Sequence record: OZ035815.1
Reading direction: 5' to 3' (one strand)
Length of the DNA: 40,159 nt
DNA from: Kayfunavirus MT1B1P3
Positions 30 through 26,057 of the stretch are shown here, one piece after another. The notes under the pieces are model-generated. The model made no database searches. It saw nothing but the letters and a program-made list of their open reading frames with translations, and was not told the DNA's origin. The position numbers were made by a program, and so were the translations under genes. Positions within the stretch are counted from its first letter, which is position 1. Each line of letters begins with the position of its first letter.

Positions 30-293
30 ATGACGCAGATGGACTTAGAGAAGTTCCTCTTAATGCTAGATACTGAACGTGCTCGACTCATGCTGCAAGA
101 CCTGCGGGATGACACTAAGCGTTCACCTCAGCTCTACAACGCCATTGAGAAGCTGCTTGCTCGTCACAACTTTGTGTTAAGCAAGGTGTCTGTTGACGAG
201 AAGACGCTCGCTGATATGGAGGCCCTGAACGCAGAGTACGATAAGGTGCTCTCAGCTACAGAAGATAATGACACCGGGTATGGTGTTCAATAA
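30..293 (+). CDS. 18: DNA packaging protein A / small terminase subunit (T7 gp18-like)
   Basis: 87-aa ORF with SD (aaaggagg) upstream; recalled similarity to T7 gp18 (FLxMLDT...RSPQLYNAI.KLL.RH.F); position immediately before 18.5 and 19. Confidence 0.8.
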   Translation: MTQMDLEKFLLMLDTERARLMLQDLRDDTKRSPQLYNAIEKLLARHNFVLSKVSVDEKTLADMEALNAEYDKVLSATEDNDTGYGVQ

Positions 294-295
294 GT

Positions 296-345
296 GTTAG
301 ACTCAAGGTCATTACTATATGTAGTGGCCTTTATGGTTAACACTA
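296..345 (+). promoter_or_regulatory. putative RNase III processing site (R18.5-like)
   Basis: motif gactcaaggtcat...gtggcctttatgGtta; near-identical motif recurs at 9741 and 16941 and resembles the T7 R1.1 site from memory. Confidence 0.35.
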
Positions 346-394
346 ACTAGTGGAGGCGACTCTACGTGAAATCTGATAAACCGGGAGGGCAACT

Positions 395-3299: not shown

Positions 3300-3535
3300 T
3301 CTCACAGTTCAAGAACCTCAAGTCTCCCCATAGGCCCTCTTTAAGTCCAGACCAAAGGCCCTACCCGTTACTACTCCTTGCAGTCACAGCCAGTCTGTCA
3401 TAAGGTTGGACCGATGGTCAGGACTTCAGGTCAACGATAGGTCTAGGCTATGGCTTATGGAAGGACGATAGGTAGAGGCTATAGGTCTTCTTTGAGTCTC
3501 TATCTGTATAGTGTTATAGTATAACATTACGTCCT
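3300..3535. other. inferred physical genome left end and collapsed terminal repeat
   Basis: tctcacagttcaagaacctcaagtctccccatagg at 3300 resembles the recalled T7 left-end sequence (TCTCACAGTGTACGGACCTAAAGTTCCCCCATAGG); flanked by cctacag-type short repeats on both sides, as in the T7 concatemer junction; exact boundaries not determinable. Confidence 0.4.
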
Positions 3536-3538
3536 ACA

Positions 3539-3662
3539 CCTACAGTCTCACTAACCTACAGTCTCACTAACCTACAGTCTCACTAACCTACAGTCTCACT
3601 AACCTACAGTCTCACTAACCTACAGTCTCACTAACCTACAGTCTCACTAACCTACAGTCTCA
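3539..3662. repeat. tandem array of a 16-bp unit (cctacagtctcactaa), 7 full copies plus one partial
   Basis: counted directly: units at 3539, 3555, 3571, 3587, 3603, 3619, 3635 and a partial at 3651-3662; analogous in position to the T7 short-repeat array next to the terminal repeat. Confidence 0.9.
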
Positions 3663-3812
3663 ACCATAAGACACCAACACCTACAGTCATAGATCTACAG
3701 TTACTAGACACAGAGCTATAGACTTAAGGTCCAAGACATGTTAGTCAAAGACTATATCCTCTTACACCATGAGGCCGACGATAGCTTAATCAGTATTATT
3801 TCAAATTACCTA

Positions 3813-9720: not shown

Positions 9721-9740
9721 CTAAACTATCACTATAGGAT
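9721..9740 (+). promoter_or_regulatory. phage RNAP promoter (phi1.1-like)
   Basis: ctaaactatcactataggat matches consensus. Confidence 0.65.
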
Positions 9741-9785
9741 TAGACTCAAGGTCATGACTCAAAGTCGTGGCCTTCATGATTAACC
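9741..9785 (+). promoter_or_regulatory. putative RNase III site (R1.1-like)
   Basis: tagactcaaggtcat...gtggccttcatgattaacc; resembles T7 R1.1 (aaggtcaatgagtggcctttatgattgacctt) from memory. Confidence 0.4.
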
Positions 9786-9815
9786 TTAAATAAACACTAC
9801 TGGAGATTTAACCAC

Positions 9816-10263: not shown

Positions 10264-11339
10264 TGACAACTATTAAAACCAACCCGCACCGCGCTGTAGA
10301 TTACTCTGAGTCTGGCGTTAAGAAGGCACTGGAAGCAGCCGGGTCTCTGGAAGCTGAAGTGAAGTACGACGGTGTGCGACTGAATCTCCCGGTCCTGCGT
10401 GAAGGTGAGACCTACTGGTTGAGCCGTGAGTCTAAACCTCTTCCAGCCTTGGAGTGGATGAACTCTGAGTTAGGGAATGCGTGGACACAAGCTGACTGGC
10501 GATGGTTCCTGCGTCAAGCTGGCTACGAAGGTGTGGGCATGATGATTGATGGCGAGGTCATGGTCAAAGGTGTAGACTTCAACACCTCCTCAGGTCTCAT
10601 CCGCACGAAGTGGCTGAAGCCTAACAACGAGGAGTTCGCTGAATGCTATCCGTGGCGTGGTAAGAAGGTCCCGTTCTGGGCAGCCCGGTCAAGACTTCAG
10701 GTTGTGGTATACGGTGTCGTAGACATGACAACCATTGCTGACCCGAAAGCCGAAGGTCCTATCCATAGCGTCACACGCCTGAAGGCTGAAGCTATCGTCC
10801 CTCTCCTCCAGAAATACTTCCCGGAAATCGACTGGGTTCTGTCTGAGTCACACACGGTCTATGACCTTGAGTCGCTCAACTCCCTGTACGAAGAGAAGCG
10901 TCTGGAAGGACATGAGGGTCTGGTAGTCAAAGACCCGCTGGGTAAGTGGAAGCGTGGCAAGAAGTCAGGCATGTGGAAAATGAAGCCTGAGGATACCATC
11001 GACGGGACCGTATGCGGACTCGTGTGGGGGACTCCGGGTAAGGCTAACGAAGGTAAGGTCATCGGCTTCGAGGTTCTGCTGGAGGACGGAATGGTAGTTA
11101 ATGCTTGTGGTCTGACTGAAGAACAGAAGAACGAGTTCACAGCTAACGTCGCTGAATCTAGTGGTTATACCTTGGCTGGTGGCCATGTGGTTATTCAGGA
11201 TGGGACCGAGAAGATCAACCCATACGAAGGCTGGCAGTGCGAAGTCCTCTTCATGGAGCGGTTCCCAGATGGTTCCCTTCGTCACCCTAGCTTCAAGTGC
11301 TGGCGCGGAACGGAAGATAACCCAACTGTTAAGAGTTAA
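10248..11339 (+). CDS. 1.3: ATP-dependent DNA ligase (T7 gp1.3-like)
   Basis: 363 aa; adenylation motif KYDGVR near N-terminus; size and position match T7 ligase. Confidence 0.95.
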   Translation: MEQSIMTTIKTNPHRAVDYSESGVKKALEAAGSLEAEVKYDGVRLNLPVLREGETYWLSRESKPLPALEWMNSELGNAWTQADWRWFLRQAGYEGVGMMIDGEVMVKGVDFNTSSGLIRTKWLKPNNEEFAECYPWRGKKVPFWAARSRLQVVVYGVVDMTTIADPKAEGPIHSVTRLKAEAIVPLLQKYFPEIDWVLSESHTVYDLESLNSLYEEKRLEGHEGLVVKDPLGKWKRGKKSGMWKMKPEDTIDGTVCGLVWGTPGKANEGKVIGFEVLLEDGMVVNACGLTEEQKNEFTANVAESSGYTLAGGHVVIQDGTEKINPYEGWQCEVLFMERFPDGSLRHPSFKCWRGTEDNPTVKS

Positions 11340-11349
11340 CTAAATTTCA

Positions 11350-11388
11350 ACCCAGTGGTCTTAGCGGACTGCTGGGTTTCTTTGCTTT
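11350..11388 (+). terminator. rho-independent terminator after ligase (TE-like, for host RNAP)
   Basis: hairpin acccagtggtc / gactgctgggt (11-bp stem with 2 G-U pairs, 6-nt loop) followed by tttctttgctttg. Confidence 0.55.
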
Positions 11389-11423: not shown

Positions 11424-11445
11424 CCCTAAGCTATCACTATAGGAC
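11424..11445 (+). promoter_or_regulatory. phage RNAP promoter
   Basis: cctaagctatcactataggaca; consensus core with upstream variation. Confidence 0.55.
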
Positions 11446-13384: not shown

Positions 13385-13836
13385 TGGCCCAATGGTCTGC
13401 AAAACGGGGGCACTCTGTGGGTGCCTACCGCTCTGGACTTGAAGCCAAGAACCAGCAGTGGCTGGAACAGAATGGCGTCAAAGCGGAGTACGAAAGCCAT
13501 TATATCAACTATGTGATTCCGGCTTCCGACCACAAGTATACACCAGACTTTATCCTTCCTAACGGTATCATCGTGGAGACCAAAGGTATCTTCGATAGTG
13601 ATGACCGTAAGAAGCACCTTCTGGTACGAGAACAGCACCCAGAGTTAGACATCCGGTTCGTGTTCTCAAGTTCCCGCTCCAAGCTATACAAAGGGTCTCC
13701 GACCACGTATGGCGCATGGTGTGAAAAGAATGGCTATAAGTATGCCGATAAGTTCATCCCGGTTGAGTGGCTGAAAGAGGCGACTGTACGTCTGCCTTCA
13801 GGTATCCTCATCCCCAAGAAGAAAGGAGTTAAGTGA
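13384..13836 (+). CDS. 3: endonuclease I, Holliday-junction resolvase (T7 gp3-like)
   Basis: strong recalled similarity to T7 gp3 (YVIPAS.H.YTPDF.LPNGI.VETKG...SDDRKKHLL.REQHPELDIR.VFSSSR.KLYKGSPT.YG). Confidence 0.9.
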   Translation: MAQWSAKRGHSVGAYRSGLEAKNQQWLEQNGVKAEYESHYINYVIPASDHKYTPDFILPNGIIVETKGIFDSDDRKKHLLVREQHPELDIRFVFSSSRSKLYKGSPTTYGAWCEKNGYKYADKFIPVEWLKEATVRLPSGILIPKKKGVK

Positions 13837-14306
13837 TGACTCAGAAATATAGACTTAAGGTTAGTGGCTACGGGTGGCCTAAAGGCACTATCGTTACGAA
13901 ATGTGCGAAAGACCCTGCACCATCAAACGGACATACTCTGGTGGAATCCACTGAGCGTGGCACATACAAACACGGAGCAGCAGGTCATAACACTCAGCCT
14001 GATGGTATGTGGGGGGCGTGGGTTGTAAACGAAAATCTTGAGGAAATCGTAGAGGATAAACCTCAGGTCCTACCAGCCTCAAGCGTCCCTCCTGTCACCG
14101 TTAAACGTGAAGTCCTGACCATCAACAAGATTGGTGTAGGCCAGACGTTCATCGTCCACGGTAAGCCTGACGAAGTGTACGTGAAGATTAGCAACTCTCA
14201 CGTATTCAACCACAAGCGGCTACAGATGCACACGACTGACGCACAGCGCTTCCAGTCACATCTGAATCTTGTGGTAGTAGAACTGGTGGTGTACAATGGT
14301 AAGTAA
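13836..14306 (+). CDS. hypothetical protein (156 aa), accessory insertion between endonuclease I and lysozyme
   Basis: ATG at 13836 overlaps gp3 stop (tgATG) with SD aaggag upstream; no homolog recognised; T7 has no gene at this position. Confidence 0.5.
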   Translation: MTQKYRLKVSGYGWPKGTIVTKCAKDPAPSNGHTLVESTERGTYKHGAAGHNTQPDGMWGAWVVNENLEEIVEDKPQVLPASSVPPVTVKREVLTINKIGVGQTFIVHGKPDEVYVKISNSHVFNHKRLQMHTTDAQRFQSHLNLVVVELVVYNGK

Positions 14307-14754: not shown

Positions 14755-14778
14755 TAAACTCTAAGGGAGAACAACCAA

Positions 14779-14994
14779 ATGATTAAAATTATCGAATTTC
14801 TTGGTCGTCTGGTGGTGCGTGGGTATCGTCGTGCTGCGGTACTGGAACGAAAGGTAGAAAAGAAGAATGCGGACGGTGCGGCTGATGCTGCTGCTCTGGC
14901 TGACAAGCTGACCATCGCGTCACTGGAAGCTGGAATGAAGGCTCGTCAGGCTGATACCAAAGCTGACCAGTTGGCTCAGTTCTTCAAAGCCTAA
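14779..14994 (+). CDS. hypothetical protein (71 aa)
   Basis: ORF with SD (taagggag) upstream; Ala/Lys-rich; not similar to T7 gp3.8. Confidence 0.4.
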   Translation: MIKIIEFLGRLVVRGYRRAAVLERKVEKKNADGAADAAALADKLTIASLEAGMKARQADTKADQLAQFFKA

Positions 14995-15012
14995 ACTATC
15001 ACCTTAGGGATG
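14991..15012 (+). promoter_or_regulatory. phage RNAP promoter variant before gene 4
   Basis: ctaaactatcacCTtagggatg: two substitutions (-4, -3) relative to consensus; followed by hairpin gggaca...tgtccc. Confidence 0.4.
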
Positions 15013-15059
15013 GGACAATTAGTCCTGTCCCTTTGTTCGCATTTGTGATTAAGGAGTGA

Positions 15060-16939
<1,880 letters not shown>

Positions 16940-16940
16940 G

Positions 16941-16985
16941 TCTAGACTCAAGGTCATTCACAGCGAGTGGCCTTTATGATTAGAC
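16941..16985 (+). promoter_or_regulatory. putative RNase III site upstream of DNA polymerase
   Basis: tctagactcaaggtcat...agtggcctttatgattagac, third copy of the conserved motif. Confidence 0.4.
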
Positions 16986-17002
16986 TAAACGGAGGATTAA
17001 CC

Positions 17003-24701: not shown

Positions 24702-24723
24702 CTAAACTATCACTATAGGGAGA
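24702..24723 (+). promoter_or_regulatory. phage RNAP promoter (phi10-like, full consensus)
   Basis: ctaaactatcactatagggaga, identical to T7 consensus from -7 to +6 (CACTATAGGGAGA). Confidence 0.7.
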
Positions 24724-24825
24724 CCAAGAGATAGACTCAAGGTTTCCCTATTACTTCAGTCCATACGGATTGGGCATACAGTAAGTAATAAACTTTATCT
24801 TTCAATTGAATAGGAGAATTATCAT

Positions 24826-26004: not shown

Positions 26005-26043
26005 AACCCCTTGGGTGCCTTCGGGTGCTTGAGGGGTTTTTTG
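26005..26043 (+). terminator. phage RNAP terminator (Tphi-like) after capsid gene
   Basis: aaccccttgggtgccttcgggtgcttgaggggttttttg: GC-rich hairpin plus T-run, very similar to recalled T7 Tphi. Confidence 0.8.
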
Positions 26044-26057
26044 CTTAAGGAGGTACT

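What the first reader, a model, noticed from the sequence alone, without database searches (positions are those of the whole stretch)
14779..15030. Small Ala/Lys-rich ORF in the 3.8 slot, followed by a variant promoter and a 5' hairpin
The 71-aa ORF does not resemble the HNH-type T7 gp3.8. Its stop is embedded in a promoter with two substitutions at -4/-3, and the predicted transcript begins with a gggaca...tgtccc hairpin, possibly a stabilising 5' structure or attenuator for the gene 4 transcript.
Basis: seen in the sequence. Interest (0 to 1): 0.35.

Follow-up and report, generated by a model that had tools for sequence, protein, structure and literature searches.

The report
K1F-type copy of T7 phi3.8/R3.8
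The small gene, variant promoter and hairpin are real, but they are this K1F-like phage's versions of parts already named in phage T7 (the gene 4.3 family, promoter phi3.8 and stem-loop R3.8), so the finding is ordinary.

Summary
The window is Escherichia phage Mt1B1_P3, a K1F-like Kayfunavirus. The 71-aa ORF (14779-14994) is K1F gp3.7. It is conserved, under purifying selection and predicted to be one long helix. It is not an HNH protein but a remote member of the T7 gp4.3 family (phrog_1950; profile-profile 99% to Pfam DUF5471 members), function unknown.

Its stop codon lies at -15..-13 of a phage-polymerase promoter (+1 = 15007). This is the weakest of 11 promoter copies in the window, with CTTA instead of TATA at -4..-1. 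The -4 C is kept in every relative with this promoter type.

The conserved structure is a 10-bp stem from +1 to +25 (15007-15031). Compensatory changes support it within Kayfunavirus and across other Studiervirinae genera, and a near-invariant UUUGUUCGC follows it.

Promoter, hairpin and tail correspond to T7 phi3.8/R3.8. Other records annotate that hairpin as a putative RNase III site or as a terminator. The true "3.8 slot" lies downstream of the hairpin and is empty here.

The mechanism is unresolved: transcript-end hairpin, leaky terminator or RNase III site. The T7-type lower stem is not conserved in Kayfunavirus. Novelty is low.

The parts
14764..14771 (+). Shine-Dalgarno region (TAAGGGAG) of the gp3.7 ORF
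   Evidence: Read directly from the sequence. It ends 7 nt before the ATG.
14779..14994 (+). gp3.7 gene: a 71-aa single-helix protein, the Kayfunavirus member of the T7 gp4.3 / DUF5471 / phrog_1950 family. Function unknown.
   Evidence: ORF. phrog_1950 match, E 8e-25. 72 homolog clusters, including K1F Gp3.7. hhalign against T7 gp4.3-type proteins gives 99%, E 3.5e-18. dN/dS is 0.3-0.7 overall, with the N-terminal 20 codons at dN 0.05-0.07 and dS 0.31-0.42. AlphaFold2 predicts a helix over residues 2-70, pLDDT 94.5.
14990..15012 (+). Phage RNA polymerase promoter, positions -17..+6 with +1 = 15007. It is the positional and sequence ortholog of T7 phi3.8, with CTTA instead of TATA at -4..-1.
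   Evidence: Repeat family. Position weight matrix. The variant is conserved in relatives. T7 phi3.8 sits at the same junction.
15007..15031 (+). Conserved RNA stem-loop: 10 bp, 5-nt loop, from +1 to +25. It is the ortholog of the upper stem of T7 R3.8.
   Evidence: Folds. Covariation. Homology. Annotated as a terminator in the ASO2B record, at the equivalent of window 15006-15042.
15003..15035 (+). Extended stem that can form only in read-through transcripts: -1 A with +26 U and -4 C with +29 G, around a UU/UU internal loop.
   Evidence: Appears in the minimum-free-energy fold. Across genera the extension is 80% paired, with full 4-bp pairing in T7, the T3-likes and Kc166A.
15032..15040 (+). 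Near-invariant U-rich tail, TTTGTTCGC.
   Evidence: Identical or nearly so in 19 of 19 representatives from Kayfunavirus, Teseptimavirus, Teetrevirus, Helsettvirus and others.
15051..15065 (+). Shine-Dalgarno sequence (AAGGAG) and ATG of gene 4 (primase/helicase, 15063-16763), the first gene served by the promoter.

Best explanation
The region is the junction between the gene 3.5/3.7 block and gene 4 in a K1F-like phage. All of its parts are orthologs of known T7-group parts.

(1) The ORF is gp3.7, the only member in this genome of the T7 gp4.3 family. It is a roughly 70-aa single-helix protein. It probably acts as an oligomeric helical binder of a host or defence protein. That function is inferred, not shown.

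(2) The promoter is the equivalent of class II promoter phi3.8. It is a deliberately sub-consensus copy that starts the gene 4 transcript at 15007.

(3) The first 25 nt of that transcript form a conserved stem-loop, followed by UUUGUUCGC.

Most likely working (inferred). On transcripts started here, the stem-loop is a flush 5'-terminal hairpin. It hinders 5'-end-dependent decay, and a U-rich leader and a strong ribosome-binding site follow it. On transcripts reading through from upstream promoters, the same stem, lengthened by -4..-1 pairing with the tail, sits before a U-tract. There a fraction of the RNAs end, either by leaky termination or by RNase cutting. This would leave the upstream messages with a protective 3' hairpin and lower the RNA dose of gene 4 and the genes after it.

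That the RNA structure is conserved is shown by the comparisons. Its biochemical activities are inferred.
For: Identity of the phage: 100% match to Mt1B1_P3.

ORF:
- phrog_1950 match, and T7 gp4.3-type proteins fall in the same phrog.
- The gp3.7 profile finds DUF5471 proteins among 1.8 billion sequences.
- hhalign gives 99%.
- An HMM built from T7-type proteins hits only this ORF in the window, E 3e-15.
- A T7 gene 4.3 match confirms the link (H89).

Promoter: it belongs to the 11-copy family. The -4 C is conserved in all relatives of the ACTATCAC type.

Hairpin:
- Energy -15.9 kcal/mol, z = -3.9.
- 98% paired with 3 compensatory pairs within Kayfunavirus.
- 95% paired with 5 of 10 compensatory pairs across genera. 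Versions with the 3' partners slid by 1-3 columns (whole structure, extension included) are at most 55% paired.

Orthology to T7 phi3.8/R3.8: T7 reads CACTAAA|GGGAGACCACAGCGGTTTCCC|TTTGTTCGCATT at the lysozyme/3.8 junction. The same module occurs in IME15, phiSG-JL2, fPS-9 and others.

Effect in T7: RNA-seq shows a sustained fall in reads downstream of R3.8 (PMC6938266).

5' hairpins: they are known to stabilise E. coli mRNAs by impeding RppH (PMC3997798). A second promoter in this window (24718) also starts with a flush GGGAGACC..GGUUUCCC hairpin.

The intergenic region is about 90% identical between lineages whose gp3.7 coding sequence is only about 64% identical.
Against: - No transcript ends were measured for this phage or for any Kayfunavirus.
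- The U-tract is short (UUUGUU), against U6 in this phage's own Tphi-like terminator at 26018.
- The simple terminator scan finds no more sites than chance: 1 found against 1.4 expected.
- Sequestering the 5' end did not stabilise a lacZ mRNA made by T7 RNA polymerase (PMC3997798).
- GGGA at +1..+4 is fixed by the promoter anyway, so the flush 5' start could be a by-product.
- The conservation of GUUCGC beyond the U-run is not explained.
- For gp3.7 there is no functional evidence at all. Natural truncations and frameshifts exist: ZG49-type, 66 aa, and NS1.
Confidence: 0.55

Rival explanations
1. The hairpin is an RNase III processing site, as its T7 ortholog R3.8 is annotated. Host RNase III would cut read-through transcripts at the 3' base of the stem, separating the upstream mRNAs from gene 4 mRNA.
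For: - Sequence and positional orthology to T7 R3.8.
- Annotated as 'possible RNase III site R3.8' in T7.1 and 'putative RNaseIII site R3.8' in phiSG-JL2.
- T7 folds into the classic two-stem site with an asymmetric internal loop.
- T7 reads fall after R3.8.
Against: - The T7 lower stem (-16..-9 pairing with +25..+33) depends on GAAC in the promoter. It is not predicted in K1F, Dev2, Kc166A, the T3-likes or IME15. In this window only a weak, non-conserved substitute appears.
- What remains is an 11-bp stem, about half the length of a usual substrate (general knowledge of E. coli RNase III).
- The same genome holds three canonical T7-type two-stem sites sharing ..AGACUCAAGGUCAU..GUGGCCUUUAUGAUUA.. 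(292-349, 9735-9792, 16937-16990). This hairpin does not resemble them.
- R3.8 is itself labelled only 'possible' or 'putative' in the records seen.
Confidence: 0.2
2. The hairpin plus U-tract is mainly a leaky intrinsic (class I type) terminator or attenuator for the phage RNA polymerase. It would trim transcription into gene 4 from both upstream promoters and its own promoter.
For: - A stem with a G+C-rich base is directly followed by UUUGUU. This is the part that is invariant across genera, while the upper stem covaries.
- In most genera -3..-1 AAA pairs with the U-tract, as in A-tract/U-tract terminators.
- Two published records call it a terminator, using WebGeSTer/TransTermHP.
- The T7 coverage 'cliff' occurs at the orthologous site, where no terminator is otherwise known.
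Against: - There are only three consecutive U, and K1F itself has UCUGUU.
- Simple-scan hits are at chance level.
- A terminator 25 nt after its own promoter would waste that promoter's output.
- Essential gene 4 has no other promoter between 15007 and 20877.
Confidence: 0.2
3. The stem-loop matters only as a 5'-terminal stabiliser and leader of the gene 4 mRNA. It would work like the T7 phi10 or ompA 5' stem-loops, and its effects on read-through RNA would be incidental.
For: - The stem starts exactly at +1 in every lineage.
- It is followed by a U-rich single-stranded leader and a strong Shine-Dalgarno sequence.
- The same design appears at the capsid-gene promoter at 24718.
- Review evidence supports protection by 5' hairpins.
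Against: - It does not explain the pairing of -4..-1 with the tail. That pairing is 80% across genera, with a compensatory U-A in Kc166A, and it exists only in read-through RNA.
- It does not explain the fall in T7 reads after the site.
Confidence: 0.15
4. The promoter-derived sequence UCACCUUA acts as an anti-Shine-Dalgarno element. It would mask the gene 4 ribosome-binding site only in read-through transcripts, which would explain the -4/-3 variant.
For: The minimum-free-energy fold of an 81-nt read-through RNA pairs UCACCUU with AAGG-AGUGA.
Against: - Ensemble calculations show the same Shine-Dalgarno accessibility with 0 to 150 nt of upstream RNA in five lineages; only at 250 nt upstream does it rise somewhat in K1F-type sequences (about 0.3 to 0.5). 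In K1F-type sequences it is about 0.3 unpaired either way.
- The pairing is not kept in the lineages with TAAA or TTAA promoters.
Confidence: 0.03

Closest known systems
T7 promoter phi3.8 with the RNase III site R3.8 (Dunn and Studier map; annotated in the T7.1 and phiSG-JL2 records)
   Same: - Same genomic junction: after the lysozyme-side genes and before gene 3.8 or gene 4.
- The promoter overlaps the preceding stop codon.
- The transcript starts with GGGA, which pairs with UCCC to form a stem-loop.
- The same TTTGTTCGC(ATT) tail follows.
- The upper stem is kept by compensatory changes.
   Different: - The promoter specificity region is the K1F type (AACTATCAC).
- Positions -4..-1 read CTTA, against TAAA in T7.
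- The stem is 10 bp, against 8 bp in T7.
- The T7 lower stem (AAUUGAAC with GUUCGCAUU) is not conserved in Kayfunavirus.
- Gene 4 follows directly, because the HNH gene 3.8 is absent here.
T7 gp4.3 (Pfam DUF5471, phrog_1950)
   Same: - About 70 aa.
- N-terminal motif M(F/I)K(L/I)I..LG(R/K)LVV..Y and a C-terminal FF(K).
- Predicted single long helix.
- Profile-profile probability 99%.
   Different: - The gene lies upstream of gene 4 rather than downstream.
- The single sequence scores below Pfam's cut-off (15.2 bits against 25).
- About 37% identity over the aligned profile columns.
- Function is unknown in both. T7 gp4.3 is dispensable (PMC12664982) and is proposed, with weak effect, to counter a RADAR system (preprint PMC11482910).
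5'-terminal stem-loops of T7 phi10 and E. coli ompA/papA mRNAs
   Same: A stem that begins at the first transcribed nucleotide. In phi10 it is the same GGGA..UCCC design. Phage C5 even carries GGGAGACCACAACGGTTTCCC at this site.
   Different: No stability measurement exists for this element. The conserved U-tract and the pairing with promoter bases -4..-1 are not features of those stabilisers.
T7 Tphi, a class I terminator for phage RNA polymerase
   Same: A stem-loop with a G+C-rich base, followed by a U-run and then G.
   Different: Tphi-type sites have a longer stem and six U; this phage's own copy is at 26018-26045. Here there are only three U before the G, and the site lies 25 nt after a promoter.

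Membership tests
T7-group phage RNA polymerase promoter (K1F specificity) | Match to the genome's own -17..-5 recognition sequence | tested here: met
   CCTAAACTATCAC is identical to the consensus of the other ten copies.
T7-group phage RNA polymerase promoter (K1F specificity) | TATA at -4..-1 (the melting region) and GG at +1/+2 | tested here: inconclusive
   GGGA at +1 is present. Positions -4..-1 read CTTA, not TATA. Two other copies in the window also vary at -3 (TTTA, TGTA). The total score is the lowest of the 11 copies but far above background.
T7-group phage RNA polymerase promoter (K1F specificity) | Initiation by the phage polymerase at +1 | not testable with these tools
   Needs in vitro transcription or 5'-end mapping.
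T7 phi3.8/R3.8 module | Position between the gene 3.5 side and gene 3.8/4, with the promoter overlapping the upstream stop codon | tested here: met
   Window. T7. phiSG-JL2. fPS-9. IME15.
T7 phi3.8/R3.8 module | GGGA..UCCC upper stem from +1, followed by TTTGTTCGC | tested here: met
   Covariation: 95% paired, 5 of 10 pairs compensatory.
T7 phi3.8/R3.8 module | Lower stem between promoter -16..-9 and +25..+33, giving the two-stem RNase III architecture | tested here: not met
   Predicted in T7, C5, WW2, fPS-9 and Sarma103. Not predicted in K1F, Dev2 or Kc166A. In the window only a different, non-conserved pairing appears.
T7 phi3.8/R3.8 module | Cleavage by host RNase III | not testable with these tools
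   The records seen call it 'possible' or 'putative'.
Intrinsic (class I) terminator | G+C-rich stem-loop immediately followed by a U-rich tract | tested here: inconclusive
   The stem is present, and 5 of the 8 bases after it are T. Only 3 U are consecutive. The count of such sites is no higher than in shuffles (1 against 1.4). The Tphi-like site in this phage has U6.
5'-terminal stabilising stem-loop | Stem begins within a few nucleotides of the 5' end of the primary transcript | tested here: met
   The predicted stem starts at +1, provided that initiation is at 15007.
5'-terminal stabilising stem-loop | Lengthens mRNA half-life | not testable with these tools
   Needs a decay measurement.
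T7 gp4.3 / DUF5471 / phrog_1950 | Significant match to the family model | tested here: met
   phrog_1950 E 8e-25, full length. hhalign 99%, E 3.5e-18. Pfam DUF5471 with the single sequence is below the cut-off (15.2 bits against 25).
T7 gp4.3 / DUF5471 / phrog_1950 | About 70 aa, conserved N-terminal M-x-K-x-I..LG-x-LVV..Y and C-terminal FF | tested here: met
   Alignments.
T7 gp4.3 / DUF5471 / phrog_1950 | Gene located after gene 4, as in T7 and T3-like phages | tested here: not met
   Here it lies before gene 4. No second copy exists in the window.
T7 gp3.8 (HNH endonuclease) | HNH domain | tested here: not met
   No HNH match for the ORF. A real HNH_3 ORF sits downstream of the hairpin in a relative.

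The most novel reading that the evidence does not exclude
The element called 'RNase III site R3.8' may not be an RNase III site at its core. It could be a conserved, leaky attenuator of the phage's own polymerase, made of a stem plus UUUGUUCGC, that sets the lower RNA dose of the DNA-replication genes throughout Studiervirinae. Three observations fit this reading. Kayfunaviruses, T3-likes and IME15 lack the T7 lower stem. The tail is near-invariant regardless of promoter type. And T7 RNA coverage drops at a place where 'no terminators are present'.
Probability: 0.25. Interest if true: 0.45.

Novelty: new member of a known kind. Interest (0 to 1): 0.2.

Why it matters
The result mainly tidies annotation.
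- The hypothetical gp3.7 of K1F-like phages can be labelled a T7 gp4.3/DUF5471 family protein.
- The unannotated intergenic region can be labelled as the phi3.8/R3.8-type promoter and stem-loop.
- The 'terminator' labels in some records and the 'RNase III site' labels in others refer to the same conserved element.

The comparison also sharpens a small open question in T7 biology: what R3.8 does, and why RNA levels fall after it. It shows which parts are universal (the upper stem and the UUUGUUCGC tail) and which are specific to certain lineages (the lower stem).

K1F-type promoters and polymerases are used as orthogonal expression parts. A natural weak promoter variant with a 5' hairpin leader may therefore have minor practical use.

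Tried and rejected
It is 64% paired with no covariation, against 98% for the +1 register.
- An anti-Shine-Dalgarno role for the variant promoter bases was rejected. Shine-Dalgarno accessibility is unchanged with up to 150 nt of upstream RNA.
- A conserved long duplex around the site, as expected for a classical RNase III substrate, was not found. Only the +1 stem recurs in folds of 160-nt read-through RNAs from 12 lineages.
- The 12-codon mini-ORF ATG 15010..TGA 15048 in the leader is not conserved. In the Dev2 type it stops after 3 codons (read).
- Rfam has no family match anywhere in the window.
- Fold searches with the single-helix model gave no hits in BFVD or PDB, as expected for a lone helix.
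- The K1F genome paper and the Chen and Schneider promoter paper are not in the held library. The high-throughput T7 promoter paper that I read gives no value for the -4 or -3 substitutions.
- A class II (ATCTGTT) pause signal was considered, because K1F itself reads CTCTGTT. Most lineages, including this window, read TTTGTT, so I did not pursue it.

Full report
**Identity and context**

The 1.2 kb around the finding is 100% identical to Escherichia phage Mt1B1_P3, a Kayfunavirus, and about 95% identical to K1F. The local gene order is ssDNA-binding protein (2.5), endonuclease I (3), a 157-aa ORF (3.2), amidase/lysozyme (3.5), the 71-aa ORF, and primase/helicase (4). In the K1F record the 71-aa ORF is 'gp3.7', with no function given.

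**The ORF**

The ORF at 14779-14994 has a good ribosome-binding site. Its composition is 22.5% Ala and 11% Lys.

It is conserved. It has 72 homolog clusters in the large protein collection and occurs in 191 phage records, nearly all of them Kayfunavirus. The N-terminus MIKxIEFLGRLVVRGY is invariant, the middle is variable, and the protein ends in FFK.

Between lineages whose coding DNA is only 60-68% identical, dN/dS is 0.4-0.7. The first 20 codons show dN 0.05-0.07 against dS 0.31-0.42. It is therefore a real gene.

AlphaFold2 predicts one continuous helix over residues 2-70, with pLDDT 94.5. Fold searches return nothing.

It has no HNH domain. Instead:
- It matches phrog_1950, E 8e-25.
- Its family profile, searched against 1.8 billion proteins, finds roughly 70-aa proteins beginning MFKLI..LGKLVV.
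- Those proteins are Pfam DUF5471 members and fall in the same phrog.
- One of them matches T7 gene 4.3 (H89).
- Profile-profile comparison gives 99% probability, E 3.5e-18, over 70 columns.
- An HMM built only from the T7-type proteins hits this ORF and nothing else in the window.

So gp3.7 is the Kayfunavirus gp4.3-family protein, placed before gene 4 instead of after it.

T7 gp4.3 is dispensable (PMC12664982). One preprint proposes it as a weak counter to a RADAR defence system and likens it to the helical ATPase inhibitor IF1 (PMC11482910). No function is established for the family.

**The promoter**

The window holds eleven copies of ..(C/A)CT(A/T)A(A/G)CTATCACTATAGG(G/A)... The copy at 14990-15012 has a perfect recognition region but reads CTTA at -4..-1. 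The TAA of gp3.7 lies at -15..-13.

It scores lowest of the eleven copies (27.4 bits against 28.3-36.5). It is still the 11th best of 80,272 positions in the window.

The variant is not a private mutation:
- CACCTTAGGGA is kept in the K1F, Dev2 and SH4 lineages.
- Ro45lw has CACCTAA and Kc166A has CACCATA, so the -4 C is constant.
- In Kayfunaviruses whose own promoter consensus is ACCCTCACTATAGG (EcpYZU01), the copy at this site is again off-consensus: ACACTCACTTAAGGGA.

**The hairpin**

RNAfold places a 10-bp stem at +1..+25 (15007-15031): GGGAUGGGAC/GUCCUGUCCC with an AAUUA loop. Its energy is -15.9 kcal/mol, z = -3.9, and no shuffle folds as well. It is the strongest 5' structure among the window's promoters.

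On 18 distinct Kayfunavirus sequences this register is 98% paired. It shows G-C/A-U, G-C/C-G and A-U/C-G exchanges at three pairs, while versions slid by 1-3 columns reach at most 61%.

**Orthology to T7 phi3.8/R3.8**

A pattern scan found the same hairpin and tail after a T7-type promoter in Stenotrophomonas phage IME15, directly between the lysozyme gene and gene 4.

T7 itself reads ..AATTGAACTCACTAAA|GGGAGACCACAGCGGTTTCCC|TTTGTTCGCATT.. at phi3.8, with +1 at 11180.

The module also occurs in C5, WW2, phiSG-JL2, ChM-G5, Leclercia 10164-302, Seera, fPS-9, phi1_146030 and Sarma103. The TTTGTTCGC tail is nearly invariant throughout.

Across these genera the main helix is 95% paired, with compensatory changes at 5 of 10 pairs. 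A 4-bp extension, -4..-1 pairing with the first four tail bases, is 80% paired.

Public records label the element in different ways:
- 'possible RNase III site R3.8' in T7.1, as a stem-loop spanning -16..+33
- 'putative RNaseIII site R3.8' in phiSG-JL2
- 'terminator' in fPS-9 and in ASO2B, the window's nearest annotated relative

From memory, the T7 map places R3.8 at 11203, just 3' of the stem. The paper I could read says only that the phi3.8 start lies upstream of the cut site (PMC6938266).

**The real 3.8 slot**

In T7 and fPS-9 the HNH gene 3.8 follows the hairpin. One Kayfunavirus contig carries an HNH_3 ORF at exactly that place.

Other relatives carry different inserts at the same spot:
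- a 59-aa ORF
- short ORFs of 35 and 36 aa; the 36-aa one looks like a truncated N-terminus of the HNH ORF
- a tRNA gene: tRNA-Thr in ST31 and tRNA-Ser in Kc166A

In ST31 and the 59-aa-ORF contigs the gene 4 ribosome-binding sequence reappears directly before gene 4. In this window the slot is empty.

**What the hairpin does**

The comparisons show a selected RNA structure but not its activity.

For T7, the fold gives the classic two-stem RNase III shape. The lower stem needs GAAC in the promoter. It is predicted only in T7, C5, WW2, fPS-9 and Sarma103. It is not predicted in K1F, Dev2 or Kc166A, in phiSG-JL2 and ChM-G5 among the T3-likes, or in IME15; EcpYZU01, IMGVR_160 and Leclercia 10164-302 show only a few such pairs.

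This window does contain three canonical T7-type two-stem sites, at 292-349, 9735-9792 and 16937-16990. They look quite different from this hairpin. RNase III is therefore not the best reading here.

The universal parts are a stem with a GGG/CCC base followed by UUUGUU. These resemble a weak intrinsic terminator. T7 RNA-seq shows a lasting drop in reads after the orthologous site, in a region where the authors note no terminator is known. However, the U-run is short, and the simple scan finds such sites at chance frequency.

The flush 5' stem, U-rich leader and strong Shine-Dalgarno sequence also fit a stabilised 5' leader. The pairing of -4..-1 with the tail can form only in read-through RNA.

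I therefore favour a boundary element that works on both kinds of transcript. I rate RNase III processing, pure termination and pure 5' stabilisation as rivals of similar, lower weight.

An anti-Shine-Dalgarno role for the variant promoter bases was tested and rejected.

**Verdict**

The elements are orthologs of known T7-group parts. Novelty is low.

Noticed in passing
L012 1480-1558 (phage ST31) and L022 975-1052 (Kosakonia phage Kc166A): A tRNA gene sits between the conserved hairpin and gene 4: tRNA-Thr(CGU) in ST31 and tRNA-Ser(UGA) in Kc166A. This is exactly the T7 gene 3.8 slot. The window itself has no tRNA gene.
   Followed up: partly
L004/L006 1485-1664, L021 967-1074, L013 1485-, L052 299-: The slot after the hairpin is a hotspot for small inserts in relatives. 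It holds a 59-aa ORF, short ORFs of 35 and 36 aa, or a 120-aa HNH_3 endonuclease (T7 gp3.8 type). The 36-aa ORF in L013 looks like a truncated N-terminus of the HNH ORF. In the 59-aa-ORF contigs (and in ST31) the gene 4 ribosome-binding sequence TAAGGAGTGACCAATG reappears directly before gene 4, which suggests insertion by recombination at that sequence.
   Followed up: partly
window 292-349, 9735-9792, 16937-16990: Three copies of a conserved element, ..TAGACTCAAGGTCAT..GTGGCCTTTATGATTA.., fold into two stems with an asymmetric internal loop. They look like canonical T7-type RNase III sites. One follows the promoter at 9737 and one lies just before gene 5.
   Followed up: partly
window 3506-3678: Array of about ten 16-nt tandem repeats (ACCTACAGTCTCACTA). 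It resembles the repeat arrays next to the terminal repeats of T7-group genomes, which suggests the window is a permuted or reversed version of the deposited linear genome.
   Followed up: no
window 24718-24748: The promoter before the capsid gene region also starts with a flush 5' hairpin, GGGAGACC..GGUUUCCC (-16.3 kcal/mol for the first 45 nt). This is the same design as the T7 phi10 leader.
   Followed up: no
window 26018-26045 and 11349-11388: Two strong terminator-like hairpins. One resembles Tphi and is followed by TTTTTTG. The other has 13 bp, is followed by TCTTTGCTTT, and lies just upstream of the promoter at 11442; it may be the early terminator.
   Followed up: no
window 13833-14306: The 157-aa ORF between endonuclease I and the amidase (K1F gp3.2, phrog_16385) is about twice the length of its counterpart in the Dev2/SH4-type relatives (about 74 aa). 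Only its C-terminal half matches the short form (phrog_15211).
   Followed up: no
L014 1201-1401 (ZG49-type) and protein P0067 (Citrobacter phage NS1): Natural gp3.7 variants exist with a premature stop (66 aa, CAG>TAG) or a frameshift after residue 40. This hints that the protein is dispensable in at least some hosts.
   Followed up: no
window 6414: A phage-type promoter copy (ACTATCACTTTAGG) lies immediately upstream of what appears to be the RNA polymerase gene region. This position has no counterpart that I know of in T7.
   Followed up: no
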